Part shown: positions 1 through 14,674 of the stretch, one piece after another
How the letters are laid out: every line of letters starts with the position of its first letter
Numbering within the stretch: the first letter of the stretch is position 1
Assembly (NCBI GenBank): GCA_051859245.1
Contig: JBHYGA010000001.1
Coordinates: 1,245,722-1,309,721, forward strand
Direction: 5' to 3'
Source: Gemmatimonadaceae bacterium
Lineage (GTDB): Bacteria; Gemmatimonadota; Gemmatimonadetes; Gemmatimonadales; Gemmatimonadaceae
DNA: 64,000 nt
Translations under genes and position numbers: made by a program
Notes under the pieces: generated by a model
What the model saw: only the letters and a program-made list of their open reading frames with translations
What the model was told of the DNA's origin: nothing
Databases searched by the model: none

Positions 1-2
1 TC

Positions 3-191
3 CCGACAAGAACACGCGACTTGGCCTGCTTCGCACAGTTTCTCGAGGAACGCTGCGTCGCGCGGCTCGGCGATTTGCGGCTCGCGCTGGTTGACCATCT
101 CGTTCAGCAAAATGGTGCCTCTCGTCGCAGCGTGACACGGGATGTGTACGCGCTTTTGCCGCCAGCCCGCGACACGGGAGACGGTCGATGA
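3..191 (+). CDS. Partial hypothetical protein (5' end outside window)
   Basis: Open frame ...ASRRSVTRDVYALLPPARDTGDGR* whose TGA overlaps the ATG of the next ORF (ATGA 188-191). Confidence 0.55.
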   Translation, partial: PTRTRDLACFAQFLEERCVARLGDLRLALVDHLVQQNGASRRSVTRDVYALLPPARDTGDGR

Positions 192-562
192 ACGCCGGTA
201 CTCGACGCCCGCCACGCCGCCAACTGCGTTCGGTGTCGCGCGGGAATGACGCGCTGGCGTTTCCAGTTGGTCACGAAGCGGCGGTGCGGCTCGCCGATCT
301 ACAGCGGGACGAGTCACTCGCCCATTCGATTTCGAACATTCTCGCCCCGACCAATAGCACGCTGCACGGAGAACGTGGTCGGACGGTACGATTGCTCGCT
401 ACCCTCGCCCACGAACGCAAGCTTTCTTGGCGGACGGCACGTCGCGTGCTCGTTGCGCACAGCACCTTCGAATGGGATCGGGGCGATCCCAACGCGATCG
501 CCGACGCGCTCGAAGCTTTAGCATACGAGCGCGTGCGTCTGCGTGACACGGAGGCCGCATGA
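188..562 (+). CDS. Hypothetical protein of the element
   Basis: 124 aa, ATGA coupling at both ends, GGGAG upstream. Confidence 0.7.
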   Translation: MNAGTRRPPRRQLRSVSRGNDALAFPVGHEAAVRLADLQRDESLAHSISNILAPTNSTLHGERGRTVRLLATLAHERKLSWRTARRVLVAHSTFEWDRGDPNAIADALEALAYERVRLRDTEAA

Positions 563-1641
563 GCGCGTGCCTTTGGTTGGCGCCGTTGCCGACGACCCGC
601 GCACTTGACGACGAGGCAACGGGGTACAGTGCACTCGCGCACGCTCTCGCTACGTTCGCTGATCAGCGCTTGGTCAACCGACGCGACGTGTGGGGCGGCT
701 ACTGGCCCAACGGTATGCGCGAAACGCTCGGCAAGGTCTACACGGCGCCGCGCGTGAAGGACCGGGGACGCGTGTTGTTGGCGCCATCGGTACTGCGCCA
801 ACACTTCGCGTCACGCGATGCCGGTGACGTGATCGGTCTGCATTCCACGAGTGAATCCGATTCGTCGCGCTGGCTCGCGTTTGACATCGACGCGCACGAC
901 GAAACGGTGACGCCAGAGACCACGCGATTGAGTGCGTGCTATCTTGCGGAACGCCTCGCGGAGCGCGGTGCTGCGGTGCTGCTCGAAGACTCGGACGGCG
1001 CCGGTGGGTATCACGTTTGGATCCATTTTGAGGCGCCAGTTGCAACCGCTGCCGCCTACGAATGGGCGCGGCGGCTCGCGGATGATTGTGCGTCGGCGAC
1101 TGGACTGCGGCCCGAAACATTCCCCAAGCAAGCGAGCGCCGCGGGTGCGTTCGGCAACTGGCTGCGTTTACCGGGGCGCCATCATACGCGTTCGCATTGG
1201 TCGCGGGTGTGTCGTCCTGGCGAAGCGTGGGCGAGCGGTGCCGACGCCGCGACGTGCGTGCTCTCGTGGCCTGCAACGCCTGCGGACGTCGTACCGCCGG
1301 TCGATGCATGGCCGCAACCGCAGCGCGTACACACACCGCTGGTGGTGGCAACGAACGATGCGCCGACCGATCGTGCGCGCATCATTGCCGCGTACGTGCG
1401 CCGCCTTCCGCACGGCAAGGCGGGCAGTGCACGCTCCGACCGTCTCTTCAGTCTCGCGCGGTTTCTTCGCCATGGCATGCAGTGCAGCGACGCCGAAGCG
1501 TTGCCGGTGCTGCACGCGTGGAATAGTGGCAACGCCCCGCCACTGCCTGAAGCCAAGGTGCTGATCACATGGCAAAACGCGGCAACCTATGCGAGCCGCC
1601 CCGTCGCTGTCCGTGTAAGCGGGAGGCGTCATGCAGCGTGA
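559..1641 (+). CDS. Archaeo-eukaryotic primase (AEP) family primase-polymerase with PriCT-like C-terminus
   Basis: AEP motifs WLAFDIDAHD, SDGAGGYHVWIHF, ETFPKQ, GNWLRLPG; C-terminal RSDRLFSLA...WNSGNAPPLPEAKV. Confidence 0.85.
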   Translation: MSACLWLAPLPTTRALDDEATGYSALAHALATFADQRLVNRRDVWGGYWPNGMRETLGKVYTAPRVKDRGRVLLAPSVLRQHFASRDAGDVIGLHSTSESDSSRWLAFDIDAHDETVTPETTRLSACYLAERLAERGAAVLLEDSDGAGGYHVWIHFEAPVATAAAYEWARRLADDCASATGLRPETFPKQASAAGAFGNWLRLPGRHHTRSHWSRVCRPGEAWASGADAATCVLSWPATPADVVPPVDAWPQPQRVHTPLVVATNDAPTDRARIIAAYVRRLPHGKAGSARSDRLFSLARFLRHGMQCSDAEALPVLHAWNSGNAPPLPEAKVLITWQNAATYASRPVAVRVSGRRHAA

Positions 1642-3304
1642 CGATCCCGCGCTGAGCGCCATTCGCGAGCAGGATCGCGCGCGCGGTCACGACTCGCCCT
1701 CCCCCACGGTCTCTGCACTCGAAGCACGCGTCGACCTGGCATCGGGCGCGGGATACATCACGGTGCGTTGGGATCGCGGCGAGAAACGCCCCGCCGTCAC
1801 ACTGGTCATCGATGGTGCGCCGGTTGGTGTTGAGCGGTTCGATCTGCTGAACGTGCGCGCCCGCACCCGGTTCGCCGAGATGGCGCCGGACGCGCTACGC
1901 GCAGAGACGGAGCGCGCGCTGGTTGATCTGGCCCTGCGGCCACCGCCCACCACACGCGTCGATGAACCGTCGAGCCGTGCGGTGCTGGTCGCGGATGACG
2001 AGCCGAGCGACGAGCCGGTTGTGCTCGGCGACGTGCTGCACGCGGCGCGCACGGCGTTCACACGCTACGCCGTGTTGCCTGCGCATGGCGATATCGTGCT
2101 AACGCTGTGGGTGGTCGCGACACACTTTGTGCAGCACTTGCACTACTTCGGCATTTTGCATGTGCAAAGCGCGGTGCGAGAGTCCGGCAAAACGCGCGTC
2201 CTTGAGCTCGTGCATTTGATGTCGGCGCGGTCGTGGTCGCTCGTGCAGCCGACGATGTCGACACTGTTTCGCGTGATTGAAGCGAAAGCGCCAACGGTGT
2301 TGATCGACGAAGCCGACACGTTGTCCCGAGAGCAGATCTCCGACTTTACCGCGCTACTGAACGATGGTGTTAAGCGCGGCGGGTGCATCCCGCGCACGGC
2401 CGAACGCTCGGATGGCTCCTTCGAAGTGGAAGGCTTTGCGATCTACTGTCCGAAGGCGATCGGCTCTATCGGCGTGCCATTTACTGACGCGACGGTGAGT
2501 CGGACGATTCGCCTCGTGATGGATCGCGCGGATCCGTCGGCTCTTGCGCGGCTGACACCGTTTCGCATGGATCGCGCGGAACAACGGTGGGCCCGATCGC
2601 TTCGGCGCCAGCTGGTTCGCGCGGGCAACGATTATGGCGAGCGGTTGGCCGCGCTGCTCGATGTGGGCGACGACGACGAAACAAACGTGCCGCTTCCGGC
2701 CGGTGTCGATGGACGGCAAGCGCAGATTTGGGAACCGTTGTTGGCGCTCGCGGATCTCGCGGGCGGCGAGTGGCCGGTGCTCGCCCGGACTGCGTGTCTG
2801 CACTTTGTGTCCGCGCTGAAAGCGGCAGAGCCAGCGGACCCGAAGGTTCGGCTGCTGAGCGATTTGCGCGAGTTCTTCCATGAGAAGCCGAGCATCGCGT
2901 ACGCGACGTCTGAACAGATTATCGAGTTCCTGATTGCCGACGAGGCGCGGGGCTGGTCAGAGTATCGGCGCGGTCATCCGATCACGCCGCATCAGCTCGC
3001 CCGGTTGCTGAAGCCATTCCGCGTGCGCCCCGCGATTCAGCGCGCGAGCGAACTACCGCAAGGGCGAGCACGAGCATGGGCACGCGCCGAGCTGGAGCCC
3101 GTGTGGGAGCGACTCGCACCACAAAGCGAGACGATTGACGACGCCGCAAACCCGACAGCGCACAGCGCCTCCGGTGTCACGGATGTCACGCTTGTCACGG
3201 ATGTCACACTTGCCAGTGACACAAACGATGTCGGTCCCGGCCTCGAAGTGCTGCCTTCGAGCTACTGGGATGCGTACGATCTCCTCCACGAGGACGCCGC
3301 CTAA
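1631..3304 (+). CDS. DUF3631-like replication NTPase/helicase
   Basis: Walker A-like SAVRESGKT, Walker B VLIDEAD, GRQAQIWEPLLALADLAGGEWP, ITPHQLARLLKPF; follows primase. Confidence 0.8.
   Translation: MQRDDPALSAIREQDRARGHDSPSPTVSALEARVDLASGAGYITVRWDRGEKRPAVTLVIDGAPVGVERFDLLNVRARTRFAEMAPDALRAETERALVDLALRPPPTTRVDEPSSRAVLVADDEPSDEPVVLGDVLHAARTAFTRYAVLPAHGDIVLTLWVVATHFVQHLHYFGILHVQSAVRESGKTRVLELVHLMSARSWSLVQPTMSTLFRVIEAKAPTVLIDEADTLSREQISDFTALLNDGVKRGGCIPRTAERSDGSFEVEGFAIYCPKAIGSIGVPFTDATVSRTIRLVMDRADPSALARLTPFRMDRAEQRWARSLRRQLVRAGNDYGERLAALLDVGDDDETNVPLPAGVDGRQAQIWEPLLALADLAGGEWPVLARTACLHFVSALKAAEPADPKVRLLSDLREFFHEKPSIAYATSEQIIEFLIADEARGWSEYRRGHPITPHQLARLLKPFRVRPAIQRASELPQGRARAWARAELEPVWERLAPQSETIDDAANPTAHSASGVTDVTLVTDVTLASDTNDVGPGLEVLPSSYWDAYDLLHEDAA
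3175..3221. repeat. Iteron-like array: TGTCAC x4 at 9-bp period plus one inverted GTGACA
   Basis: TGTCAC at 3175, 3184, 3193, 3202; GTGACA at 3216. Confidence 0.75.
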
Positions 3305-3753
3305 TGGCGCGCCGTGCAAAGGATGATGCGAACCTCGGCCCGAAAAAAGCCGAAGAGAAAGCCGTGAAAAGGGCACCAAACACGCCGTCCGACGACGCGC
3401 CGCCGTCCGAGCCATCGGCCGAACCGATGCAACTCGAAACGCCGAAGCACGGCAAAGGACTGCTCCGCCGCAGTGGTGTGTCGCCCGGTTCGGGACGGCG
3501 CCCCTCCGCGCTCAGAGCGATCGCGATGAACGGTGTTGATCGCGCGTTGCCGCAGATCCAAGCGCTTGCCGAAGCAGGCGGGCCGGACGCGATCCCAGCC
3601 TTCAATGCGCTGGTGAAGGTCGCGGGATTGGACGGCCGGATTTCGCCGGCCGACGTGCGCGAACGCTTACGGGCGCAAGTCGAAATGATTCGCTCCCGCT
3701 CACAGTGGACACCACAAGAGCTGCTCGATCAGCTCGGGGAGATTTGGAGATGA
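3304..3753 (+). CDS. Hypothetical protein, possibly terminase small subunit-like
   Basis: 149 aa, TAATG-coupled; disordered N-terminus, GVSPGSGRRP motif then helical region; PICI-like position after rep. Confidence 0.5.
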   Translation: MARRAKDDANLGPKKAEEKAVKRAPNTPSDDAPPSEPSAEPMQLETPKHGKGLLRRSGVSPGSGRRPSALRAIAMNGVDRALPQIQALAEAGGPDAIPAFNALVKVAGLDGRISPADVRERLRAQVEMIRSRSQWTPQELLDQLGEIWR

Positions 3754-6206
3754 CAATGCCGGCTATGACGCCGCCACCGGCGCCCCCTCGCGCTCGCCCA
3801 CTCTCGTTCGAAGAATGGAAGGCTGCGGGGAAGCCGACGGGCGCACCCGATCAGCGGGAGCGCAGGTCGCTAGAAGAGATTTTTGGGGACGAGAGACCCG
3901 CGGCGCCGAAGGAGACGCCAGGACACCTCTCGGGCATCGCGGGTCAGCTTGCACAAGGCGTGACGTTCGGTGCCATGGCGCCGATTGCCGGCGCCGCTGG
4001 AACGGTTGTGCGCAAGATCCAAGGGGATGGCCGACCGATCGGTGACATCTACACGCAACTGCGCGACGATTATCGCGGGCATGATGACACCTACCGCGAC
4101 GCGTACCCGAAAACAGCGTTTGCCGCGAACATCGTCGGCGGTGTCGCCTCGCCTGCATCATCGGCGTTGAATGCGGTGAGGGTGTCATCGAAAGCGGGAA
4201 TGCTCGCCAAGGCCGCCAACGCCGGCACGCAAGGGGCCCTCGCTGGCGCCGTAGGTGGCGCCGCAAATGCTGACGACGGCAAGGTGTTGGGCGGGGCGGT
4301 TGGTGGCGCCGCACTAGGCGGGATGCTCGGTGGTGGCTTCAGTGTCTTTACTGACGCGATGCGGCAGGGAATGCGCGTCGTTGGTGCCGGTCCGCGCGCC
4401 GCGGGTGATCCGTCGGTGATCGGACGTATGCGGAGCGCGGTTGGCGCCGAGACGGCGGAAGAAAGCGCGGCGCGGCGTGTGCTGCGATTGGGTGAGCAGA
4501 CCGGGCGCACCGTCGACGACTTGCGCAATGCGAGTGCACAGGCGGACGATCCGACCATTCTCGCCGAGTTGTACGGTCCGAAGGGAGCACAGCGTTTGCG
4601 TACGGTGCGCTCGCTTGGCAATACCGCGCGCGAACAAGTCGACGAAACACTCAACGATCGCGCCAGTAATGAGACCGCGCGTTTGCGTGCACGATTCGGC
4701 GAGCTGACTGGTGTCGAGCAGCGCGACGCGGGGGACGTTGCCAAGGGTGCCATGGCGAAGACTGAGCCCGACTACTCGATGCGGTACAAGCTGGCGAACG
4801 AGATCGCGCTCCCGGAGGACGCGGCCCGCGCGGTGGCGGACATCATTTCGCCCCTCGACGTGGACGGACTGAACATTTCCGGCATGGCGCGCAAGCTGGG
4901 CAACATGCCCCAGACGCTGACGGCCAAGCCGAAGGATCCGGCTGGCCCGGGTGCCGTGGCAGAATCCGCCGTGGAAGGCGTGCGCCGCGCGTACCAAGAG
5001 GCGAGCGAGCGCGCGGCCATGCTCGAATCGATGGAAGGGCTGGTCAATCAGGTGGATGCCGACGGACTCCGGACGCGCAGCACGAACATGACGCCTGCTA
5101 TGCGCCGAAAGAACACGATGGCGAAGAAACGGCCGACGGACGAAGTGCTGTCGCGTGGCGAAAAGCGCGAGCTGGGGATGGATCTGACCGAAGATGCGCG
5201 GGCGCGGATTGAAGAGGCCGGCATGTCGGTTGAGGAATACCGCGCGCTGGTCCGTGAAGGGCGCGACGCGCAGCGCCGACTGCCGGCGCTCGAACAGCGA
5301 TTGCAGCAGGCGCAGGGGGCCGCGGATCGCGTGGCGCCGAATGACGCGCCACCGCTGCCGTCCACACTCGGCCAGGTACTCAACTATCGCAACGTGCTGG
5401 ATGCGCTGATTGAAGACAATCAGGCGACATCGTACGGGCGCAAGCTGAACGTGCGCCTAGTGCAGGCGCGCAACGCCCTCGATGCAATTGCGAAGTCCGG
5501 TGGTGGCGACCGCGAAGGCGCGCAACTTGTGCAAGAGGCCGACGAACTGTTTGCGAGTGCAAAGGCTGTCGGCGAGTCTTTCGCTGGCGGCATTCGTGCT
5601 GCGCAGAGCGGCGCCGGTCCAACGGCGGCTCGCATTGTGCGCGAACAACCCAATCAGGAAATGGCACGACAAGGCGTCGCGTCTGACTTTCTGCGTCGCC
5701 TCGGCAACGTCAACGATGAAGGGCGGATTTCAAACCCCGTTCCGACCATGGTTGGCGGACAGAACCGGCGTGACGTGGCGCGGATGGCATTCCCCGATGA
5801 CGACAGCTTCGGGCAGTTTCGCGAGTCGGCGCGCGATGTGGTCAAACGACTGGGCACACTGCGCACGGCAACCGGCGGCTCCCAAACGTCTGACAACGCG
5901 ATTGATGCGCTGTCGGAGTTTATTGATCCGTCCACCGTCTCCGCTGCGATGGGCGGAAGCCCGCTCGGCTTCCTGAGTCGCATTGCACAGAACGGCGCCG
6001 TTCGCAAAGTGTTTGACGCCAATGCGCGTGAAGCCGATGCCATGGCGCCGCTCCTGCTTGCGGGCGGTCCTGAGCAACTCCCGCGAAAGGACGCACTCGA
6101 AATGTTGGCGAAAATGGAGCCCTTCATTCGCGCACGGCTTGCGGCACAAGCCAACCGCGCGGGCGTCGTGGGCGGCACCACATCCAGCTACCTCAACCGG
6201 CGTTAG
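3750..6206 (+). CDS. Large Gly/Ala-rich phage ejection / DNA-transfer-like protein
   Basis: ATG at 3750 overlaps previous stop; PLSFEEWKA and RSLEEIFG N-terminal motifs, glycine-zipper hydrophobic segments, long helical body. Confidence 0.6.
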   Translation: MTMPAMTPPPAPPRARPLSFEEWKAAGKPTGAPDQRERRSLEEIFGDERPAAPKETPGHLSGIAGQLAQGVTFGAMAPIAGAAGTVVRKIQGDGRPIGDIYTQLRDDYRGHDDTYRDAYPKTAFAANIVGGVASPASSALNAVRVSSKAGMLAKAANAGTQGALAGAVGGAANADDGKVLGGAVGGAALGGMLGGGFSVFTDAMRQGMRVVGAGPRAAGDPSVIGRMRSAVGAETAEESAARRVLRLGEQTGRTVDDLRNASAQADDPTILAELYGPKGAQRLRTVRSLGNTAREQVDETLNDRASNETARLRARFGELTGVEQRDAGDVAKGAMAKTEPDYSMRYKLANEIALPEDAARAVADIISPLDVDGLNISGMARKLGNMPQTLTAKPKDPAGPGAVAESAVEGVRRAYQEASERAAMLESMEGLVNQVDADGLRTRSTNMTPAMRRKNTMAKKRPTDEVLSRGEKRELGMDLTEDARARIEEAGMSVEEYRALVREGRDAQRRLPALEQRLQQAQGAADRVAPNDAPPLPSTLGQVLNYRNVLDALIEDNQATSYGRKLNVRLVQARNALDAIAKSGGGDREGAQLVQEADELFASAKAVGESFAGGIRAAQSGAGPTAARIVREQPNQEMARQGVASDFLRRLGNVNDEGRISNPVPTMVGGQNRRDVARMAFPDDDSFGQFRESARDVVKRLGTLRTATGGSQTSDNAIDALSEFIDPSTVSAAMGGSPLGFLSRIAQNGAVRKVFDANAREADAMAPLLLAGGPEQLPRKDALEMLAKMEPFIRARLAAQANRAGVVGGTTSSYLNRR

Positions 6207-6379
6207 TTCAAATCGCGGTAGGAGAGACGACTACCGATGAGCCAACACAGGCCGATGAACGCCACGCACGCCGCTTCAAGGGGTTCGCCGTCAAGGGCGA
6301 GCCCCGCGATGGCGATGCACAGCAGTAGAAATCCGATAAAGACACAGACTCGTTGAAACGTGCTCAGCGTCGGCGGCAT
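6203..6379 (-). CDS. 58-aa two-TM membrane protein (not in ORF track)
   Basis: Hand translation MPPTLSTFQRVCVFIGFLLLCIAIAGLALDGEPLEAACVAFIGLCWLIGSRLSYRDLN*; stop overlaps stop of convergent gene (TTAG). Confidence 0.65.
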   Translation of the reverse strand: MPPTLSTFQRVCVFIGFLLLCIAIAGLALDGEPLEAACVAFIGLCWLIGSRLSYRDLN

Positions 6380-6408
6380 AGCGAATGCGAAAAGGTGAGT
6401 GTGTGAGT

Positions 6409-7776
6409 TCAGCGCGCGGCGCGTGTGAATGCGAGCACTCTGGTGCTACTCGTTCCCGTCAGATACTGGTCGATCGTCTGCGCGATCGCGTCCGCGGCGT
6501 GGCGTACGGTGGCGTCTCTCACTTCACCGTATCGCGACGTCATGCCAGGCAGGGTGTGTCCCACGAGGCGCGCAATCACATGATCGCCGAAGCCGAGTTC
6601 ATCACGCGCCACTGTGGTGAACGAATGCCGCAGATCGTGCAGTCGGAGCGGCGCCGACTCCTCAAGTGCGGCCGCGTGCTTGACGTTCTGCCAGAGTCGT
6701 TTTGGGTCGACGACGTGCGTTCCCTGCGACGTGCCGGGAAACACATAAGGATTGTCCAGCTGTGGCGACTGCGCTCGAATGATCGCGAGCGCGGCACTCC
6801 CAAGCGGACGTTCGCTTCGGCCGCTCTTGGTATCGGTGAGCACCGCAACGCCACGCGCGAGATTGACCGCATCCCATCGCAGCGTCAGGACTTCTTGCTC
6901 TCGCCATCCGGTGACCACGAGAAAACGCAGTGCGGCAACGAGGACCGGATTCGCCGGTGTGAGCACGGGGCTCGCGGGCAATAAGAACGGCGCGCGCGAC
7001 GCGTACGGACCGCGCACGCGACCACTGTGCTTGGCCCGCCGCTGCGAGGAGACACCGCGTGTCTGTGCTTGCAACGTCGGCGTTGCCGGAAGCCCGACGA
7101 GCGCCGCGGCGCTGAGTGCTGAGCCAAGGCGCCCGTACTCGTCCGCCGTCAGGCTGCGACTCTTGCGCCGCTCCTCGAAGCGTTCGACATCAACGCACGG
7201 GTTGGTGTGTTTAGCGCGGTAACCGCGTCGCTCCGCCCACACAAAGAACGTCGACAACAGATCAACCGCGCGATTGGCGAGTATCGGGGTAGCGCGTCGC
7301 TCGCTATGCCAGCGCGCAACCGTCGCCTCGTCGACGGCCGCGAAACGCATACCGCCGAACGTGGGCGCGAGCGTCATGCGCCAGACCCGCTCGTATTCCG
7401 CGTGCGTGCGCGGCGCCAACTTGCCTTCGCGTTCTTTCAAGTAGTCGGGGAAGACATCGGCGAGCACCTGGCGCCCGCGTCCGTCGGCGTCGTCGCCTTT
7501 CGGATCGCGCCCTTCCGCAACATCGGTTGCAGCGCGACGTGCCAGTGTGCGCGCGGTGTCGACGGTAATGCTCGGGAACGTGCCCAGCGCGAGACGCCGC
7601 GTCGCGCTCGTGTTCGGCGCCTGATACTGAAACACGAACACGCGCCGGCCGCTCGCGTACACGCGCAATCCGAAGCCGCGTTGCTCCGCATCCCAGACGA
7701 ACACTTCACCGCGTGCGGGCGCCTTGGTGGCATCCACGGCGCGTTTGGTGAGCTTGATGTGCGAGAGCTTGGGCAC
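6409..7776 (-). CDS. int: Tyrosine integrase with arm-DNA-binding N-terminal domain
   Basis: VWDAEQRGFGLRV arm-binding domain; catalytic R (TGWR), K (DTKSG), HDLRH, LVGH, SRY. Confidence 0.95.
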   Translation of the reverse strand: MPKLSHIKLTKRAVDATKAPARGEVFVWDAEQRGFGLRVYASGRRVFVFQYQAPNTSATRRLALGTFPSITVDTARTLARRAATDVAEGRDPKGDDADGRGRQVLADVFPDYLKEREGKLAPRTHAEYERVWRMTLAPTFGGMRFAAVDEATVARWHSERRATPILANRAVDLLSTFFVWAERRGYRAKHTNPCVDVERFEERRKSRSLTADEYGRLGSALSAAALVGLPATPTLQAQTRGVSSQRRAKHSGRVRGPYASRAPFLLPASPVLTPANPVLVAALRFLVVTGWREQEVLTLRWDAVNLARGVAVLTDTKSGRSERPLGSAALAIIRAQSPQLDNPYVFPGTSQGTHVVDPKRLWQNVKHAAALEESAPLRLHDLRHSFTTVARDELGFGDHVIARLVGHTLPGMTSRYGEVRDATVRHAADAIAQTIDQYLTGTSSTRVLAFTRAAR

Positions 7777-7800
7777 GGCGGAACCCCTGCGGTTAATCTT

Positions 7801-7916
7801 CCGGAATGACTCCGGAAGATACGGAGCGGGAATGTGGGAGCGGGTTCCGGGAAGATACGGGAACGTCTCCCCTCTGTAAATGCGATGGGGAGAGTATGTG
7901 CGGGAACTGGCGGGAA
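7801..7916 (+). repeat. Putative integrase arm-type sites (C[C/G]GGAA pairs; GGAAGATACGG x2)
   Basis: Pairs at 7801/7812, 7848/7858, 7901/7911; GGAAGATACGG at 7814 and 7850. Confidence 0.55.
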
Positions 7917-7930
7917 CGCAAGTCCGCTGG

Positions 7931-7978
7931 ATGGGGTTCAGGGGGTCGCGGGTTCGAATCCCGCCGTCCCGATGTTTG
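7931..7978 (+). repeat. att core 1: 3' fragment of tRNA-Pro(GGG)
   Basis: ATGGGGTTCAGGGGGTCGCGGGTTCGAATCCCGCCGTCCCGATGTTTG: anticodon loop, T-arm, acceptor 3' strand; no 5' half; identical to 14593-14640. Confidence 0.9.
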
Positions 7979-8004
7979 GAAAGTGCTGATTTTGTTGACG
8001 TTAC

Positions 8005-8038
8005 AGTCCCTCGCTCGGCTTTCGCTGAGCGGGGGATT
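8005..8038 (+). terminator. Hairpin downstream of att core 1
   Basis: AGTCCCTCGCTCGGC-TTTC-GCTGAGCGGGGGATT (with GU pairs). Confidence 0.6.
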
Positions 8039-8058
8039 GTGCGTTTATGGTGGTTGAC

Positions 8059-8094
8059 TGTGCGAGTAGTGTGCGAAATCGAAAAGCTGTGCGA
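8059..8094 (+). repeat. Putative arm-type sites TGTGCGA x3
   Basis: Copies at 8059, 8070, 8088. Confidence 0.6.
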
Positions 8095-8182
8095 GAAGGC
8101 CGGTTAGCGAGGGCTCGCGAGCCGCTGCGCGGGAGGATACCGTAAGCCGTCCTTCACCTTCCTTTCACCAACAAGCGAACGC

Positions 8183-8776
8183 ATGTCGTTAGCCCCCACG
8201 CTTCAAGCTCCCGAGCCGGAAAAGGCTGGTCTGTGGCCCGTCTTTCTTGGAGCGTTGTTCACTTTCACTGGCTGCAGGCTCATGGCCGCGACGGATGACG
8301 GCTTCGGAACGACTCTGATCGGTGTGGCGCTGCTGTCTTGGGGCTCCTATCGGCGGTGGATCGGCCCAAAGCGTCGTCGTCAGGCGATGGAGCAGGAGCG
8401 CGAGACCGTTTTGAACGATCCCGCTCGACTGCAGCGCCTCGAAGCCTACGAGAATGGCTCGTGGTTTGAGTCAGTGAAGCATCAGGACTCGTTTCTCACG
8501 GCACCATGCACGTGGTACACGCCCACTCCCTCGGGGCAGATCAAAGAGCGGGACGCGGGCACCCTGAACGTCAACGCGAAGGGTCTACGACTTTCTGGAA
8601 GCGCGCGGTCGCTCGACCTTCCATTCACGCGAATCGTTGGTATCACTGCGAAGCGCGACGGGCTGGTCGTGGAGAAAACCACGGGGCCTCACCTAATCAT
8701 CGCCGTCGAGGATCCCATTGAGGTTGCGCTCGCGTGCCAAGCCGTGAGCAGAGCGCGAGTCGTTGGCAAAGTGTAG
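8183..8776 (+). CDS. Membrane protein, two N-terminal TM segments and PH-like C-terminal domain
   Basis: Hydrophobic N-terminus; DAGTLNVNAKGLRLSGSARSLDLPFTRI. Confidence 0.6.
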   Translation: MSLAPTLQAPEPEKAGLWPVFLGALFTFTGCRLMAATDDGFGTTLIGVALLSWGSYRRWIGPKRRRQAMEQERETVLNDPARLQRLEAYENGSWFESVKHQDSFLTAPCTWYTPTPSGQIKERDAGTLNVNAKGLRLSGSARSLDLPFTRIVGITAKRDGLVVEKTTGPHLIIAVEDPIEVALACQAVSRARVVGKV

Positions 8777-8831
8777 CGCTCCGCGGGAGAGGTGATGCTA
8801 GCCCTTAGTCCCTCAAGTCGATGCGCGTACC

Positions 8832-9131
8832 CTACTCTGACAGCTCTGCCGCAGTACGCGCGTCCATCTCTCTCAGGAATGTTTTGTACGCCTCGGGGCC
8901 GGCGAGCGAAAGTGCCATTTCTCGCGTCATACCGTCTCTCGTGTGCGCTTCAAAAGTGATTCCGTTGTCCTCCCCTGTCGTGCTGAGGTGCGCGGCGAAT
9001 CCGGTGCTGAAGTCCCACGGAATCCCGTTTGGGTAGGCCGCGCACGTGCTGGTGAACGTGATCTTGTGTACGCAATAGACGCAGAGGCCGACTGGTCCGC
9101 CGCCCTCGTGAGGGTTTCGCTTTCGTTTCAT
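8832..9131 (-). CDS. Small CxxCxH...CxAYPxGIP protein (phage-associated family)
   Basis: CVYCVH...CAAYPNGIPWDF...H...GEDNGITFE; ATG at 9131 chosen over track start 9182. Confidence 0.65.
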   Translation of the reverse strand: MKRKRNPHEGGGPVGLCVYCVHKITFTSTCAAYPNGIPWDFSTGFAAHLSTTGEDNGITFEAHTRDGMTREMALSLAGPEAYKTFLREMDARTAAELSE

Positions 9132-9232
9132 TTCGATCCTGTTGAAGTAGCAAGCCAGTTCCAAGTTGCGGCGCGTTCGCAAACTTTCTTCTTTTTTGAG
9201 TTCATTTCACACCTAGTCGGGCCGGAGAAGAA

Positions 9233-9934
9233 ATGCGCGAATACGTAGGTCGAATGACGGTCGATTGGATGCGTGAAATAGTTTTCGACGATCACGCCGA
9301 CTCAAGGAACGATTTCGCTTCAGCTCTCCCAGATGAAGTCACGGCCGCGGTGCAAGCGTTAAGCGACGTGTACGGGGCGTTCCAAGACGTCGTGGCTCGT
9401 TTCCCTTCCGGCGAACGCTCCGCTACTGTTTTCGGCTTTTTGCATGTCGCTAACAACAGCCTCGTTGGCGCGCTCAACTTGCTGATGTCCGGCTACCTCG
9501 TTCCGGCCGGCAACCTAATGAGGCATTTCGCGGAGGCCTCAGCCATGGCGCTGTTGTGTTCGGAACAGACGAACGGGACGCTCGAATCGTATAGAACGCA
9601 TGGAATGAAATATCCATTTCATCATTCCATCGATCGTGTCTCGAAGAAAAAAGTTATGCAGGCGCTGGGTATTGAGCGCGACGAGTGGGAATCATTCAAG
9701 AAGTCTGCGAAGTTCTATGATCTGCACAGTCACGCTTCTGATATGGCCGTTGCTGCGAATATCATCTTCGACAATCCAGGCATGGTGGTGATGGGTGGCC
9801 AGTTTGATCCCGGGAAAGTTGAGCATTACAGACTCGAAAGCGCACAGATCACCTTCGCATCCGTGACACTGCTCGGATTGATGTCAATCGTGGAACGCCA
9901 CCTTATGGCAGCGCAGGGGAATCCTGATTCTTGA
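9233..9934 (+). CDS. All-helical DUF5677/HEPN-like protein
   Basis: GYLVPAGNLMRHFAE and FYDLHSHA motifs; GGAG RBS. Confidence 0.5.
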   Translation: MREYVGRMTVDWMREIVFDDHADSRNDFASALPDEVTAAVQALSDVYGAFQDVVARFPSGERSATVFGFLHVANNSLVGALNLLMSGYLVPAGNLMRHFAEASAMALLCSEQTNGTLESYRTHGMKYPFHHSIDRVSKKKVMQALGIERDEWESFKKSAKFYDLHSHASDMAVAANIIFDNPGMVVMGGQFDPGKVEHYRLESAQITFASVTLLGLMSIVERHLMAAQGNPDS

Positions 9935-9970
9935 GTCGCAAATAAGCACTCCCTAAGCGGGTCCACTCAT

Positions 9971-10840
9971 CTACGTCGGATCGGCGCCGTCGGCAGCTCT
10001 CACGCGCCATCTTCGCGTGTGCAACGCCGCCTTCGCTCCCGATATCTCTGCTCGCCACGCCGCAAGAACAGTCGTGACGGGGTCTTGAGACGCGGTGCGC
10101 ATGTCGCTCGCGGAGTATCCGGTGTAGCAGCGCAGCATGCGGTGCAGGTTGGACGGGGCCGACGCGCCAACGTGGGATGCGATGCGTTCAAACGATTCTC
10201 CATGCGCGCCAAGATACCAGGCGGTGTGAAGCAGGCACGCCCAGTTCGGCAGTCGGTGCGGGGCGAGGGTGGGACACAGGGAGTCCAACTGCCGTCGCAG
10301 CGTACGCTCGGACATGTGCAGGACTCGGGCGAGTGTTGGCACATCGCGAGCAGCGGGATTTAGTCGAACCGCCGCGACGAGCGCTCGAGTGGGCAGATCA
10401 TTGCATGAGCTGCCAATTCGTCCCACAAGAACCTCGGCTACCTTATTGTGTCGGACGGCTCGGAGCGCGTCGTGCAGCGCGAGCGGTGTGCCTTGGAGTT
10501 TGGTGACGACCAAGAGCGCATTTGGCGCGATTCGAGCGCCCCATTGATGTCTCTCGCCGGATGCGTCGGCCGGTAGAAGCAAAACAAACCGAGCCGCCGA
10601 CAGCACGCCCGATCCAGTCCGGTCGGCGTACTGCGCTTCGGCCCATGCAAGCGATGCAACAACGATCGCGCCGTGGGGCGGCGCATCGTTAGGAGCAATA
10701 AACTGCGAAGTGTTGACCACCACCTCGTAGTCCCAACCAGCCGCCGTTCGCACTCCGGCCAACTCCTCGTCGGAGAGGCCAAGCGTTTCAATGCGTTCGC
10801 GAACGTGGTTCGACGGACGGTCTCTACTCGACGAGCGCAT
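9971..10840 (-). CDS. AraC-family transcriptional regulator
   Basis: Two HTHs: VPTLARVLHMSERTLRRQL and FERIASHVGASAPSNLHRMLRCYTG. Confidence 0.8.
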   Translation of the reverse strand: MRSSSRDRPSNHVRERIETLGLSDEELAGVRTAAGWDYEVVVNTSQFIAPNDAPPHGAIVVASLAWAEAQYADRTGSGVLSAARFVLLLPADASGERHQWGARIAPNALLVVTKLQGTPLALHDALRAVRHNKVAEVLVGRIGSSCNDLPTRALVAAVRLNPAARDVPTLARVLHMSERTLRRQLDSLCPTLAPHRLPNWACLLHTAWYLGAHGESFERIASHVGASAPSNLHRMLRCYTGYSASDMRTASQDPVTTVLAAWRAEISGAKAALHTRRWRVRAADGADPT

Positions 10841-12107
10841 TCACCGTTTGGGTCGGAATCCCGATCACTGGCTCAAGGCAAGCGAGCCGAGCGAGCGCAA
10901 CGGAGACCGCCGTGCTCGCTGATGCATCAGATCGCACCATGGCACCAGCAGCGAGAGAGTCGCGCAGCTGATCGACGCGCTGCACATCAAGCAACCTGTT
11001 GGCTGCCCAACCCACCGATTCGTTGCGCGACTGAAGAACGTCGACATCGATTCTGAGTTCGCCAATTAACCGATTCGCCTGATGGTGCTCGCCGAGAAAA
11101 AAGTACGCCTCGAGCGCGTCAAAGCGCGCGTGCAAACGCTCCCACTGTTCGTTCGCGTTCTGCGCCTCTACCAAGAGTGCCTCGACGTGGTGGAGCACGT
11201 CGTTCCGCGTCTCGCTGCGAGTGTCGGCTAGGTGCCACGCATCCAAGGCTGCGCGCAACAAACCTGATAGCGCCGGACGCCGGACGCGCATGGTGCGCGC
11301 GAAGGAGAGTACGACGTTAAATCCTCGCTGCGCTGCACCCAGCTGCCCGCGCAAAAGCGCGAGGTGACTGAGTTCGACGAGCGCCATTCCGCGTCGCTCG
11401 TCTCGCTCGTCAACGAGATCATGTGCATGCCAAGCGTATCGCAGCGCCGCCTCAGTCCGGCCCCGTTTTCGATTCATCACCGCGAGCGTGAGCAGTGCGG
11501 CGACGAGGGCATAAGTCGGCACGACCGCGTGATTCATTGCAACGAGTCGGGAGAAGCGCTCGGCCGTCACGCTGTCATCACGAAACTGCGCGCAAGCGGC
11601 GAGTCCCTGGATGCACGCGCCCCATGCATCGCGGTGACGCGCGCCATTGGCGCGAGCGAGACCACGCTGATACCAGTCCACGGCTGCGTCGATCTCGCCG
11701 CGCTGGCGCGCCAACCGTCCGCGTCGCGCACACACAAGCGCAAGAAACTCCGCTGCGTCCGGCGCGGGAAGTTGCGGTGGCACTTTGGACTCAAGACGAT
11801 CGAGTACGTCGCGCGCGCCGTCGACGTCGCCGACGAAGTCGAGGGCAGAAGCGATACGAAGCCAACGATAGGGAGCTCGTGGCGCCATCTCCTGAGAAAC
11901 GTCCGGCGGCATTGCGGGCACGTGGGCAAACAGCGCTTCCTCGAGCCACGCGGGCGGCGGCGCGCCAGGTCCGACGCCGTCAAACCATGCGAGGGCGAGG
12001 CGAAGTAGTTCACGCACGCCGCCGGAGTCGGACGGCGCGGTGTAGCGGTCTTTCGTGCGAATGCGAGTCACAAAGTAGACGTTGACGCAGCGACTGCATA
12101 TGCGCAA
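10824..12107 (-). CDS. Tetratricopeptide-repeat protein (start uncertain)
   Basis: Repeated TPR-like units RGRLARQRGEIDAAVDWY, LAVMNRKRGRTEAALRYA, LSHLALLRGQLGAAQRGF; overlaps AraC start. Confidence 0.75.
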   Translation of the reverse strand: MRICSRCVNVYFVTRIRTKDRYTAPSDSGGVRELLRLALAWFDGVGPGAPPPAWLEEALFAHVPAMPPDVSQEMAPRAPYRWLRIASALDFVGDVDGARDVLDRLESKVPPQLPAPDAAEFLALVCARRGRLARQRGEIDAAVDWYQRGLARANGARHRDAWGACIQGLAACAQFRDDSVTAERFSRLVAMNHAVVPTYALVAALLTLAVMNRKRGRTEAALRYAWHAHDLVDERDERRGMALVELSHLALLRGQLGAAQRGFNVVLSFARTMRVRRPALSGLLRAALDAWHLADTRSETRNDVLHHVEALLVEAQNANEQWERLHARFDALEAYFFLGEHHQANRLIGELRIDVDVLQSRNESVGWAANRLLDVQRVDQLRDSLAAGAMVRSDASASTAVSVALARLACLEPVIGIPTQTVNALVE

Positions 12108-12240
12108 GTAGGCTCAACAAAGTGCAGTGGACGGAGGAAAACTTGTCCGATTCTGATATTGCTGGACGGAGGTTCGCAGAAGACCTTGTCGTCTACTTCG
12201 CCGGGAAGCGCTATGGACTATCGCATTTCTGGAGGTACGA

Positions 12241-12366
12241 GTGACGATCAATGATAGACCTGTCGCACAACTCGGACTGGTTCTTGCCGCAGTGCCGGCG
12301 AACATAGTTCTGCGGACGCCGGATCAGAAGCGTCGAGGCCGCCAACCCGCACCGGATGTCTGTTAG
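12241..12366 (+). CDS. Candidate 41-aa peptide
   Basis: GGAGG 5 nt before GTG; MTINDRPVAQLGLVLAAVPANIVLRTPDQKRRGRQPAPDVC*. Confidence 0.25.
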   Translation: MTINDRPVAQLGLVLAAVPANIVLRTPDQKRRGRQPAPDVC

Positions 12367-12576
12367 CAAAGCTACTTGGAACTGTCGCGTAGGCAGCCGC
12401 AGCCCTTCCTCGCAACGCAATGTCAAGCGTTGGTCTTCAATGACTTGTTCGCATTGATGCAAAAGATCGCATCTCAGTTTGCCGTTCCTTCCATTCGCGG
12501 CGGTGCTGTAGTGAACGCGTTGTGGCATGCGATTCGCTACCTGCCCGTCCTCACCCACACGCCAGCCAGAGCGCTC

Positions 12577-13704
12577 ATGACTACCATGTCTCATCACGCC
12601 GCAGCACGGACGCTACTCGGCATATCGCTCGTGCTAGCATTCCTATCAGGATGCGACACCGACAGCGCAGTTGCACCAGTGGAACCGCCACCACCATCCG
12701 TCGCACCAAGTCAGGCGCCGCCCGCGCTAATGGCCATGCAGCACTCGAACGCCAACAGCTGCACAGTGCACCTCAATCCCTCGCGAGCAACACGAACGGA
12801 AACGCGCTTGGCGCTGCCGGAGCGCTCGCGACGCGCAGCGCCCGGCAAGCCGCTGTCCCGAATGCAGTTTCTCCGGTGGGACGGTGTGTCCAAGCAGCCT
12901 AGCGCGCTCATTGACTGCGTCATCCCGAAAGACAGTCTCGCCGTTGAAGCGCTGAAGGACTACTTCCTCCGCGATGAAGGGGCTGCCATCGGACAGCGCT
13001 CCCGGACAAGTTCCGCCCTCAACTCCGATGCGAGCGCGCTTGCGAACACGTTCTACGATGGCATGACGTGCTGGTACGATCCGTGGCTTAACGACTTTGA
13101 CTGCGACGGTATAGACTGCACCGCGAATGGTAGCGCGATGGTGGCCGGCGTGAGCCAGATCAATTCGGCTGCTGCGTCGGGAGGGCAAACTAGCGCGACG
13201 CAAGAGCCGAGCGGTCAGTACATCTGTGAAAACGGTTGCACACTCTGGGCAGATGGAATGGGTGGCGTGGGATTCAATTGCCCTGAGGATGACGGTGACG
13301 GGGAGGGTGGTGGTGGGGGGGGAGGTGGCAATCCTGGCCCCGCGCCTGATGAACCCGATGTGGATCCCGCTGGTCTTTGCTCGGACCTGATTGATTCGGT
13401 CGTTGAAGGATCGATGATCGAGTGCGGAGTGGGTCCGGATCCGATCCTAGTGAAGGCGGCAGTTCTCAGGTTATGTCCGCCGACCGCGGTTGGAGTGGTG
13501 ATTCACCCGCAATCACTTCAGACAGTCAGCTTTAGCCTCACACGAGCACCGTCTGGTATCAGGTCGAAATCGTTCGGTGGCGTAGTGCGATATGACGTTG
13601 CCGAATACCGCGGTACCATCTCTCTGGGTGGCGTACCCTCAACTATGCGCGGATCAGTATGGTGCAGCGTTGGAGTTGGCATCTTTGAGCCGGTTCCGAC
13701 TTAG
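12577..13704 (+). CDS. Cys-rich lipoprotein with Gly-rich linker and distinct C-terminal domain
   Basis: Signal ending LAFLSGC; Pro linker; many Cys; DGDGEGGGGGGGGNPGP linker. Confidence 0.75.
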   Translation: MTTMSHHAAARTLLGISLVLAFLSGCDTDSAVAPVEPPPPSVAPSQAPPALMAMQHSNANSCTVHLNPSRATRTETRLALPERSRRAAPGKPLSRMQFLRWDGVSKQPSALIDCVIPKDSLAVEALKDYFLRDEGAAIGQRSRTSSALNSDASALANTFYDGMTCWYDPWLNDFDCDGIDCTANGSAMVAGVSQINSAAASGGQTSATQEPSGQYICENGCTLWADGMGGVGFNCPEDDGDGEGGGGGGGGNPGPAPDEPDVDPAGLCSDLIDSVVEGSMIECGVGPDPILVKAAVLRLCPPTAVGVVIHPQSLQTVSFSLTRAPSGIRSKSFGGVVRYDVAEYRGTISLGGVPSTMRGSVWCSVGVGIFEPVPT

Positions 13705-14592: not shown

Positions 14593-14640
14593 ATGGGGTT
14601 CAGGGGGTCGCGGGTTCGAATCCCGCCGTCCCGATGTTTG
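14593..14640 (+). repeat. att core 2: 3' fragment of tRNA-Pro(GGG)
   Basis: 48/48 identical to 7931-7978; AAAGTG matches again after one mismatch. Confidence 0.9.
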
Positions 14641-14674
14641 CAAAGTGAAGTGAAATAGAGATTTAAGTCAGACT

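What the first reader, a model, noticed from the sequence alone, without database searches (positions are those of the whole stretch)
3304..6379. Satellite-like element carrying its own ejection/DNA-transfer-like protein instead of capsid genes
Seen: after the primase and NTPase, the coupled operon continues with a TerS-like ORF and an ~820-aa Gly/Ala-rich helical protein with glycine zippers. It then ends at the integrase, with no capsid, portal or tail genes in this segment. Known: PICIs have int-pri-rep-terS; P22-like podoviruses load ejection proteins (gp7/gp20/gp16) into the head. Inference: a satellite that redirects helper packaging and supplies its own internal virion protein for DNA entry, host range or helper interference. 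I know of no such module described for this lineage.
Basis: partly seen in the sequence, partly recalled or inferred. Interest (0 to 1): 0.8.

Follow-up and report, generated by a model that had tools for sequence, protein, structure and literature searches.

The report
Small island carrying podovirus ejection-protein gene
A 12.9-kb mobile island inserted in a proline tRNA gene has no capsid or tail genes yet carries a full-length relative of the last ejection-type protein gene of short-tailed phages, so it may be a phage satellite that supplies or sabotages a DNA-entry protein.

Summary
The ORFs are real. A 149-aa ORF (3304-3753) and an 818-aa ORF (3750-6206) overlap their neighbours' stop codons, directly behind a PrimPol and a DUF3631 (RepAM-type) P-loop protein.

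I found the boundaries. A 43-bp repeat of the 3' half of tRNA-Pro(GGG) brackets a 12,936-bp island that starts about 5 kb upstream of the window and ends at 7973. The island holds an integrase, an AlpA-like HTH and an XRE HTH. No capsid, portal, tail or terminase gene was recognised.

The 818-aa protein belongs to phrog_5880, a family with no Pfam model. Members are the last gene of the structural module in four roughly 36-43-kb phage genomes and one P22-like prophage. That is the slot of P22 gp16, although no sequence similarity to gp16 was detectable.

Four islands with a related backbone carry restriction-type cargo in the same slot, and one carries an Sf6-type small terminase.

Not shown:
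- that the 149-aa protein is a TerS
- that the island is a working satellite (3 of 5 PICI core functions)
- that a helper exists (none found in this genome)

The AlphaFold job for the large protein never finished.

Verdict: a credible and unusual satellite-like island with a captured ejection-protein gene. What the gene does there remains open.

The parts
1..7973 (.). The window part of island 1. The whole island is 12,936 bp and begins about 4.96 kb upstream of the window, at the tRNA-Pro(GGG) 3' half (L002 15038-15080).
   Evidence: A 43-bp exact direct repeat lies at L002 15038-15080 and window 7931-7973. The tRNA is at L002 15006-15079.
188..562 (+). 124-aa ORF of unknown family, first gene of the overlapping gene string.
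   Evidence: Its stop overlaps the PrimPol start (ATGA at 559).
559..1641 (+). AEP-type primase-polymerase (360 aa).
   Evidence: PF22548 AEP-TOTE E 1.3e-14; phrog_21866 primase E 3e-4; PADLOC PrimPol E 2e-9.
1631..3304 (+). DUF3631 (RepAM-type) P-loop protein, 557 aa, the putative replication initiator or helicase.
   Evidence: PF12307 E 1e-30. Walker A at residues 181-188 and VLIDEAD. DUF3631 is RepAM of pMEA300-type elements, often paired with Prim-Pol (PMC3218068, passages read).
3304..3753 (+). 149-aa protein of unknown family. It has a disordered basic N-terminus (1-66) and four predicted helices, and is translationally coupled on both sides.
   Evidence: Only 3 homologs found (59-63% identity). 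AF2 mean pLDDT 57.9. No family hit.
3750..6206 (+). 818-aa phrog_5880 protein, a homolog of the podovirus terminal ejection or internal-virion-type protein. Regions: Gly/Ala-rich, mildly hydrophobic N-terminal part (61-215); conserved N half (to about 385); subfamily-specific insert (about 390-530); conserved C half (540-800).
   Evidence: phrog_5880 E 3.9e-20. Profile search gave 1795 relatives at E <= 1e-3. 23 of 25 sampled relatives hit phrog_5880, most over nearly the full length. Composition, insert.
6203..6379 (-). 58-aa hydrophobic ORF (two hydrophobic stretches) between the large gene and int. It overlaps the large gene's stop by 4 bases.
   Evidence: No family hit. Whether it is a real gene is not shown.
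6409..7776 (-). Tyrosine integrase (455 aa) with an arm-binding domain, next to attR.
   Evidence: PF13356 E 4e-17 and PF00589 E 2.6e-14; phrog_1 E 1.1e-47.
7931..7973 (+). attR of island 1, which is also attL of island 2: a 43-bp copy of the tRNA-Pro 3' half.
14593..14635 (+). Third copy of the 43-bp repeat, the right end of the integrase-less tandem island 2 (6,705 bp).

Best explanation
Island 1 is a 12.9-kb integrative element in tRNA-Pro(GGG). It belongs to an int / AlpA-like HTH / Prim-Pol / DUF3631(RepAM) class and is best read as a PICI-like phage-satellite candidate.

The slot downstream of the replicase holds restriction-type cargo in related islands. Here it holds a two-gene module fused into the replication operon. 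The module is a small unknown protein plus a full-length, conserved homolog of the terminal ejection or internal-virion protein of podoviruses (phrog_5880, the P22 gp16 slot).

Most likely mechanism (inferred, not shown):
- An infecting podovirus with P22-type virion architecture activates the island.
- The island excises and replicates through PrimPol and RepAM, and co-expresses the module from the same operon.
- The 818-aa protein is loaded into helper-built capsids together with island DNA. On the next infection it leaves the particle and uses its Gly/Ala-rich N-terminal segments to form part of the envelope-spanning DNA conduit.
- It thereby replaces or supplements the helper's own protein.

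What is shown: island boundaries, gene content, family membership and the family's position in phage genomes. What is inferred: satellite lifestyle, packaging, virion loading and the role in DNA entry.
For: 1. The element is bounded and small. A 43-bp tRNA-Pro repeat brackets 12,936 bp.
2. It holds int, an HTH_17/AlpA-like protein (PF12728 E 4e-12; phrog_66 'excisionase and transcriptional regulator' E 2.5e-8), an XRE HTH, a PrimPol and a DUF3631 protein.
3. No morphogenesis gene was recognised in the island ORFs I scanned: 13 window ORFs and 17 upstream ORFs in Pfam, 10 and 15 in PHROGs.
4. The 818-aa protein hits phrog_5880 (E 3.9e-20). Of 25 sampled relatives from the exhaustive search, 23 hit phrog_5880. 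It keeps all 15 nearly invariant positions of the 90-sequence family alignment.
5. Family members are the last gene of the structural module in four phages: Rhizobium phage RHph_I1_23, Rhodoferax phage P26218, Microcystis phage MJing1 and Podoviridae sp. ctjLE16. P26218 has a 'gp10-like' protein upstream, and its own match is weak (E 2e-4 over 20% of the query). In MJing1 the member sits directly after a SleB cell-wall hydrolase protein.
6. The same holds in a prophage of a same-family bacterium (G031) that begins with a P22_portal-type gene.
7. Ejection proteins are usually matched by size and synteny rather than by sequence (PMC8954989, passages read).
8. The protein-language-model look-up places the protein nearest to viral clusters. 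The nearest Pfam-bearing cluster is Phage_P22_gp16, at 0.95 (a lead only).
9. Genes 188 through 6206 overlap start to stop, so the module is co-expressed with replication.
10. Four related-backbone islands were found among 400 other genomes of the order. One (L020) has an Sf6-type small terminase (PF20901, E 9e-18) between the AlpA-like gene and DUF3631.
Against: - Only 3 of the 5 PICI core functions are recognisable. No TerS and no capsid-morphogenesis gene were found.
- No helper was found in this genome. There was no P22_portal, Terminase_6N, TerL_ATPase or HK97 capsid match, and no tblastn match to the G031 prophage structural proteins.
- There is no detectable similarity to P22 gp16 or gp20 themselves (hhalign probabilities 0.4% and 0.05%) and no PF26808 hit in the Pfam scan.
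- The virion role of phrog_5880 is positional only. PHROGs lists the family as 'unknown function'.
- The arrangement could not be shown to recur. The four close homologs lie on metagenome contigs I could not fetch. No relative turned up in the genome, viral or metagenome pattern scans.
- In three of the four related islands the same slot holds restriction-modification-type cargo. That points towards defence rather than virion function.
- No structure is available for the large protein.
Confidence: 0.4

Rival explanations
1. Interference or exclusion cargo. The ejection-protein homolog, possibly with the 149-aa partner, is anti-phage cargo of the island. It may insert in the inner membrane and poison the DNA conduit of incoming podoviruses, as superinfection exclusion does. 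Alternatively it may be co-packaged into helper progeny as a dominant-negative subunit that lowers helper infectivity and favours the island.
For: - In three of four related-backbone islands the slot downstream of DUF3631 carries restriction-type cargo: type I R-M, an MmeI-like enzyme with a DEAD helicase and T5orf172, and a methylase with REase_MTES_1575. In the fourth an HSDR_N-domain ORF lies downstream, after two unassigned ORFs.
- The P22 conduit proteins gp16 and gp20 are a known target of exclusion. SieA escape mutations map to their C-terminal regions (PMC10461980, abstract read).
- The subfamily has a strongly conserved insert of about 140 aa that is absent from ordinary family members. 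Only 9 of 90 have anything at that site, and only the 4 nearest homologs share it at 52-64% identity. This could mark a change of function.
- No helper prophage is present, so a constitutive protective role would still pay.
Against: - No PADLOC family matches the 149-aa, 818-aa or 58-aa proteins. PADLOC holds only known systems.
- The module is fused into the replication operon with overlapping stops and starts. In the closest related island, L017, the cargo starts after a 210-bp gap (ORF coordinates). Induced co-expression fits a life-cycle function better than standing defence.
- All nearly invariant family positions are retained, as expected for a working conduit protein.
Confidence: 0.3
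2. Passenger remnant. The island is a non-satellite integrative replicative element with a PrimPol/RepAM module, as in AICE-type elements. It picked up the end of a podovirus structural module by illegitimate recombination, and the gene has no role in the island's spread.
For: - DUF3631/RepAM with Prim-Pol is a replication module of integrative elements that are not phage-dependent (PMC3218068, passages read).
- The island has no recognisable packaging gene.
- The arrangement was seen only once. Five other phrog_5880 loci were examined in the bacterial family. None had a homolog of the island's PrimPol, DUF3631, 149-aa protein or integrase in the fetched stretch.
Against: - The ORF is intact and full length.
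- Four homologs of the same long architecture exist at 45-61% identity, which suggests maintenance by selection.
- The gene is precisely coupled to the operon rather than lying in a scar.
- No other prophage-derived gene accompanies it. tblastx of the island against the G031 prophage and two phages matches convincingly only the large gene. Besides the alignments inside that gene, three short alignments elsewhere in the island (17-44 aa, 27-32 bits) were listed.
- No conjugation gene such as FtsK/SpoIIIE Tra was found in the Pfam scans of the island ORFs.
Confidence: 0.2
3. phrog_5880 is not an ejection protein. It may be another late function placed at the end of podovirus structural modules, such as a tail-associated envelope-degrading or lysis-related protein. 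The island gene would then serve that other function.
For: - PHROGs gives 'unknown function'.
- There is no sequence link to P22 gp16 or gp20 and no PDB sequence match.
- In RHph_I1_23 and ctjLE16 further structural or lysis genes follow.
Against: - The size (median 694 aa in the 90-sequence set) fits the ejection-protein pattern of podoviruses, where such proteins are usually matched by size and synteny (PMC8954989 passages). So does the position after one or two other large unnamed proteins, next to a peptidoglycan-hydrolase-bearing protein.
- The Gly-rich, weakly hydrophobic N-terminal segments would suit the membrane-inserting role I propose. That link between composition and role is my inference.
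- The nearest Pfam-bearing Atlas cluster is Phage_P22_gp16.
Confidence: 0.1

Closest known systems
PICI (phage-inducible chromosomal islands), as defined for SatelliteFinder (PMC10085698)
   Same: Small size: 12.9 kb here, against a median of 9.5 kb with a few at 20-28 kb. Site-specific integrase at one end. An alpA-type regulator. A primase-replicase module. No tail or holin genes. A related-backbone island carries a small terminase.
   Different: No recognisable TerS or capsid-morphogenesis gene, so only 3 of 5 core functions. The replicase is PrimPol plus DUF3631/RepAM. The island carries a phage ejection-type structural gene, which is not among the PICI core components named in the passages I read. 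No helper is known.
P22 gp16 / Sf6-type terminal ejection protein (Pfam PF26808 Phage_P22_gp16)
   Same: Size class. Family members occupy the last position of the podovirus structural module, after other large internal proteins. PF26808 is the nearest Pfam-bearing cluster in the language-model look-up, at 0.95.
   Different: No Pfam hit and no hhalign similarity to P22 gp16. The island copy also has a central insert of about 140 aa and sits outside any phage.
phrog_5880 (PHROGs v4, unknown function)
   Same: Direct profile match, with reciprocal matches of relatives over nearly the full 661-position profile.
   Different: The island protein matches the profile only over its N half (residues 65-385) at E 3.9e-20. 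Its C half is linked through the family profile search. It is encoded in a 12.9-kb island and not in a phage genome.
cfPICI (capsid-forming PICIs)
   Same: Precedent for satellites that encode virion structural proteins of their own (PMC10085698 passages; abstract of 10.1101/2022.09.08.507074 seen in the listing).
   Different: cfPICIs encode capsid, portal, head-tail connectors and TerL. None of these is recognisable here.
AICE-type integrative elements with RepAM (DUF3631) and Prim-Pol (PMC3218068)
   Same: The same pairing of replication proteins plus a tyrosine integrase.
   Different: AICEs are actinobacterial and carry an FtsK/SpoIIIE Tra protein. No such gene was found in the island ORFs scanned.

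Membership tests
PICI (SatelliteFinder core set, PMC10085698) | Integrase | tested here: met
   6409-7776 (-): PF00589 E 2.6e-14, PF13356 E 4e-17, phrog_1 E 1.1e-47. It lies next to attR.
PICI (SatelliteFinder core set, PMC10085698) | Regulation module (alpA, merR or stl homolog) | tested here: met
   L002 15596-15955: HTH_17 PF12728 E 4.2e-12 and phrog_66 E 2.5e-8. L002 16641-16952: XRE HTH PF13560 E 1.6e-11. Naming PF12728 as the AlpA-type fold is from recall.
PICI (SatelliteFinder core set, PMC10085698) | Primase-replicase module | tested here: met
   AEP PrimPol (PF22548 E 1.3e-14) plus a DUF3631 P-loop protein (PF12307 E 1e-30). I did not run SatelliteFinder's own profiles.
PICI (SatelliteFinder core set, PMC10085698) | Small terminase subunit | tested here: inconclusive
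   No TerS family hit for any island ORF scanned. For the 149-aa ORF there was none even at Pfam E <= 10. hhalign against the L020 Sf6-type TerS gave probability 0.3%. Fold search gave best Z 4.7. The Atlas gave a lead to viral small proteins with AT_hook or DUF5681 at 0.86-0.88 only.
PICI (SatelliteFinder core set, PMC10085698) | Capsid-morphogenesis gene | tested here: inconclusive
   Nothing recognised in Pfam or PHROGs. Several island ORFs remain without any family.
Pfam PF26808 Phage_P22_gp16 | Sequence match to the family profile or to P22 gp16 | tested here: not met
   No Pfam family at E <= 0.01 for the 833-aa reading and none in 66 relatives. hhalign of the 90-sequence family profile against P22 gp16 gave probability 0.4%. 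Whether PF26808 is in the Pfam copy used was not checked.
Pfam PF26808 Phage_P22_gp16 | Position as the last of the ejection-protein genes in a podovirus structural module | tested here: met
   This holds for relatives, not for the island copy: P26218_27, EVC28_015, WKV16950, UOF79589 and the G031 684-aa gene.
phrog_5880 | Profile match | tested here: met
   E 3.9e-20, residues 65-385. 23 of 25 sampled relatives match, most over nearly the whole profile.
P4-like satellites | psu-delta-sid operon, epsilon, alpha primase-helicase | tested here: inconclusive
   The PHROG and Pfam scans of the island ORFs gave no such names. The specific P4 profiles were not run.
AICE (actinomycete integrative conjugative elements) | FtsK/SpoIIIE-type Tra protein | tested here: not met
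   No PF01580 hit among the island ORFs scanned.

The most novel reading that the evidence does not exclude
This is a phage satellite of podoviruses that encodes no capsid or tail gene. It does encode its own terminal ejection (DNA-conduit) protein, together with a small coupled partner. The satellite would then control how its DNA enters the next cell: it could be independent of, resistant to exclusion aimed at, or incompatible with the helper's own ejection proteins. That would be a hijacking layer at the DNA-entry step, which I did not find described in the literature searches I ran.
Probability: 0.35. Interest if true: 0.75.

Novelty: new variant of a known kind. Interest (0 to 1): 0.55.

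Why it matters
The satellite strategies in the papers I read or listed manipulate helper capsid size or packaging specificity, or encode their own capsids (PMC10085698 passages; abstracts listed). If this island really supplies or sabotages an ejection protein, the DNA-entry step joins the stages at which satellites and helpers compete.

It would also give an experimental handle on phrog_5880. That family has about 1,800 detectable relatives, no Pfam model and no assigned function. The case extends PICI-like islands to a PrimPol/RepAM backbone, in which related islands carry restriction-type cargo and one carries an Sf6-type TerS.

Literature searches:
- 'phage satellite' with 'ejection protein' returned 4 papers (3 listed), none on this subject by title or abstract.
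- 'phage satellite' with 'internal virion protein' returned 0 papers.

These searches cover only the held open-access library.

Tried and rejected
- **Structure of the 818-aa protein.** The AlphaFold job had not finished after 31 polls, the last being. No fold search of the large protein was possible.
- **Direct tblastn of the 818-aa protein against 50,697 phage records.** No match. A close family member, P0011, also gave none. The phage examples were reached through more typical family members.
- **PDB sequence searches.** The protein and the 90-sequence profile gave nothing below E 0.04. The 149-aa profile gave nothing below E 0.1.
- **Pattern scans for syntenic loci.**
  - A1 in genome contigs, viral contigs and metagenome contigs.
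  - P0005 in metagenome contigs.
  - A4 in genome contigs and viral contigs.
  - P0024 and P0012 in viral contigs.
  - All returned no confirmed relative.
- **Broader alignments A2 and A3.** Both were too divergent for the pattern tool (errors).
- **Cluster look-up.** It gave no names or accessions for the close homologs.
- **Empty-site test in the same genus.** Inconclusive. The flank right of the islands is not conserved at DNA level in the 14 other genomes searched.
- **Fold search of the 149-aa model** (48,161 chains, best Z 4.7). No terminase was among the 50 rows shown, and the model is low-confidence.
- **Earlier-findings look-ups.** Both returned nothing.
- **'Decayed full prophage' reading.** Rejected, because the att repeats bound only 12.9 kb and no other prophage-type gene is present.
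Full report
**1. The observation**

The + strand carries an unbroken string of overlapping genes:
- 188-562, unknown
- 559-1641, an AEP primase-polymerase (PF22548, E 1.3e-14)
- 1631-3304, a DUF3631 protein (PF12307, E 1e-30)
- 3304-3753, 149 aa
- 3750-6206, 818 aa (833 aa if read from the GTG at 3705)

The junctions are TAATG at 3302-3306 and ATGA at 3750-3753, with GGAG 5 bases before the ATG.

The large protein is 16% Ala and 10.9% Gly. Residues 61-215 are 20% Gly and 20% Ala and contain three weakly hydrophobic segments. Small-xxx-small-xxx-small motifs number 44, against 26.8 +/- 5.5 in shuffles (2 of 1000 reach 44).

A tyrosine integrase lies at 6409-7776 on the minus strand. Between it and the large gene is a 58-aa hydrophobic ORF.

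**2. The element has ends**

The window is G000:C1:1245722-1309721. I fetched the 20 kb upstream (L002).

- A tRNA-Pro(GGG) lies at L002 15006-15079.
- Its 3' 43 bases recur exactly at window 7931-7973 and again at 14593-14635.

So two tandem islands sit in this tRNA gene. Island 1 is 12,936 bp and contains the finding. Island 2 is 6,705 bp and has no recognisable integrase.

The upstream 5 kb of island 1 holds:
- an HTH_17 protein (PF12728 E 4.2e-12; phrog_66 'excisionase and transcriptional regulator')
- an XRE-type HTH
- several ORFs with no family, one of which hits phrog_5176 (unknown function)

No capsid, portal, tail, terminase or lysis family was hit.

**3. The large protein**

- Pfam and NCBIfam gave nothing.
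- PHROGs gave phrog_5880, 'unknown function', at E 3.9e-20 over residues 65-385.
- The word-based search found only five relatives (45-61% identity; four of the same long architecture) from metagenome assemblies.
- An exhaustive profile search with their alignment found 1795 proteins at E <= 1e-3, 250 at <= 1e-10 and 41 at <= 1e-30. Most are 620-750 aa and match both the N half and the C half.
- None of 66 sampled relatives has a Pfam domain.
- 23 of 25 sampled relatives hit phrog_5880, most over nearly the whole 661-position profile.
- The island protein keeps all 15 nearly invariant positions of a 90-sequence family alignment.
- It has a central insert (about 390-530) shared only with its four nearest homologs, at 52-64% identity. 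Only 9 of 90 sequences have anything aligned at that site.

**4. Where the family lives**

tblastn with typical members found the family in four phages:
- Rhizobium phage RHph_I1_23 (EVC28_015)
- Rhodoferax phage P26218 (P26218_27; a weak match, E 2e-4 over 20% of the query)
- Microcystis phages MJing1 and Mae-JY35
- Podoviridae sp. ctjLE16

In the four records I opened, the genomes are 36-43 kb. The member is the last large gene of the structural module. It follows one or two other large unnamed proteins, and a peptidoglycan-hydrolase-bearing protein lies directly before or after it. P26218 has coat, a 'gp10-like' protein and then this trio.

In a bacterium of the same family (G031) a 684-aa member ends a prophage structural block. 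That block begins with a P22_portal-type gene (PF16510, E 7e-11) and is followed by regulators, a YqaJ recombinase and an integrase.

This is the slot of gp16 in P22. A review states that podovirus ejection proteins are mostly matched by size and synteny and not by sequence (PMC8954989, passages).

The protein-language-model look-up put the island protein nearest to viral clusters. The nearest Pfam-bearing cluster was Phage_P22_gp16, at 0.95 with 167 shared features, which is a lead only.

Against family membership: hhalign of the 90-sequence profile against P22 gp16 and gp20 gave probabilities of 0.4% and 0.05%. No PDB sequence match exists.

I therefore file the protein under phrog_5880. It works like a gp16-position ejection protein by position, but it is not a shown member of PF26808.

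**5. The small protein**

- Only three homologs were found (116-124 aa, 59-63% identity), all from metagenomes.
- The N-terminal 66 residues are predicted disordered and are followed by four helices. Mean pLDDT is 57.9.
- No family matched in Pfam (even at E <= 10), PHROGs, NCBIfam or PADLOC.
- hhalign against the Sf6-type TerS of a related island showed no similarity.
- The best structural Z was 4.7, to generic helical hairpins.
- The Atlas look-up gave viral small proteins at 0.86-0.88, some with AT_hook or DUF5681. That score is below the tool's own threshold for more than a lead.

'TerS-like' is therefore unproven. A partner or chaperone role for the large protein is equally possible. The complex predictor was unavailable.

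**6. The island class**

The DUF3631 protein has homologs in 4 of 400 other genomes sampled from the order, all in the same bacterial family. Around them, an AlpA-like HTH lies beside the DUF3631 gene in all four. A homologous integrase was found in three (not L019), and a Prim-Pol in two (L017 and L018). Variable genes follow:

| Locus | Genes downstream of DUF3631, and other notable genes |
|---|---|
| L017 | type I R-M (HsdM/S/R) |
| L018 | MmeI-like enzyme, DEAD helicase, T5orf172 |
| L019 | N6_N4 methylase, REase_MTES_1575 |
| L020 | Sf6-type small terminase (PF20901, E 9.2e-18) between the AlpA-like gene and DUF3631; an HSDR_N protein further downstream |

A backbone that sometimes carries a TerS and often carries defence genes matches what is described for PICI and P4-type satellites (PMC10085698 passages; titles and abstracts listed).

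DUF3631 is also the RepAM initiator of actinobacterial integrative elements, often paired with Prim-Pol (PMC3218068 passages). The replication module alone therefore does not prove phage dependence.

In island 1 the variable slot holds the 149/818 pair. Unlike the cargo in L017, which starts after a 210-bp gap (ORF coordinates), the pair is fused to the replicase gene.

**7. Helper and recurrence**

- The genome (99.87% complete) has one phrog_5880-type gene only.
- It has no match to P22_portal, Terminase_6N, TerL_ATPase or HK97 Phage_capsid.
- It has no tblastn match to the G031 prophage structural proteins.

Any helper would have to come from outside.

phrog_5880 genes occur in 6 of 200 other genomes sampled from the bacterial family. 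I fetched five such loci. None has a homolog of the island's PrimPol, DUF3631, 149-aa protein or integrase in the fetched stretch. Three of the five are preceded by one or two large co-directional ORFs, as in G031. That blastp comparison is too insensitive to name their capsid genes.

Pattern scans of the genome, viral and metagenome collections found no further relatives of the 818-aa subfamily or of the 149-aa protein. The arrangement is so far unique among what I could read. The contigs of the four close homologs could not be read.

**8. Reading**

Best supported (0.4): a PICI-like satellite candidate that has captured a podovirus terminal ejection-protein gene. It expresses the gene with its replication genes and uses the protein in helper-built particles for DNA delivery.

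Rivals:
- The protein is interference or exclusion cargo aimed at the DNA-entry conduit (0.3). This is supported by the defence cargo in sister islands and by SieA targeting gp16 and gp20 (PMC10461980 abstract).
- It is a functionless passenger in a non-satellite element (0.2).
- phrog_5880 is not an ejection protein at all (0.1).

**9. Novelty and score**

Two literature searches found nothing describing a satellite with an ejection or internal virion protein. One search returned 4 papers (3 listed), none on topic by title or abstract. One search returned 0 papers. Both cover only the held open-access library.

I rate this a new variant of a known kind, with interest 0.55. The anatomy is solid and unusual, but the satellite lifestyle, the packaging determinant and the protein's function are all inferred.

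Noticed in passing
window 7931-14635: A second tandem island (6,705 bp) is bounded by the same 43-bp tRNA-Pro repeat but has no recognisable integrase. It has lower GC (about 0.54-0.60) and holds an AraC-type HTH protein (9971-10840, -), a TPR protein (10824-12107, -) and several ORFs with no family. It could be a decayed island, or one mobilised in trans by the island 1 integrase.
   Followed up: partly
window 6203-6379 (-): A 58-aa ORF with two hydrophobic stretches lies between the large gene and the integrase and overlaps the large gene's stop by 4 bases. It matches no family. It might be a small membrane protein (exclusion, toxin or holin-like) or not a gene at all.
   Followed up: partly
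window 4917-5339 (residues about 390-530 of the 818-aa protein): A central insert is shared only with the four nearest homologs. It includes a nearly invariant basic stretch around residues 452-490 that is more conserved than the flanking family core.
   Followed up: partly
L020 6261-6854 (G154:C17): A related int / AlpA-like / DUF3631 island in another genus of the family carries an Sf6-type small terminase (PF20901, E 9.2e-18) where the other islands have Prim-Pol. This is a stronger satellite candidate than the island in the window.
   Followed up: partly
L017, L018, L019 (G162, G156, G004): Sister islands carry type I R-M, an MmeI-like enzyme with a DEAD helicase and a T5orf172 protein, and a methylase with REase_MTES_1575, all downstream of the DUF3631 gene. 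This looks like a defence-cargo hotspot in this island class.
   Followed up: partly
window 14640-14727: An element of about 85 bp just right of the last att copy matches at 79-92% identity on several contigs of four other genomes of the genus, some near contig ends. It is probably a dispersed repeat.
   Followed up: no
G100 (five contigs): One genome of the family has five separate phrog_5880 matches on different short contigs. This suggests several podovirus prophages or a fragmented assembly.
   Followed up: no
L002 10762-14937: A 1391-aa hybrid histidine kinase (Reg_prop / Y_Y_Y, PAS, HisKA, HATPase, receiver) ends just before the tRNA-Pro that serves as the attachment site.
   Followed up: no
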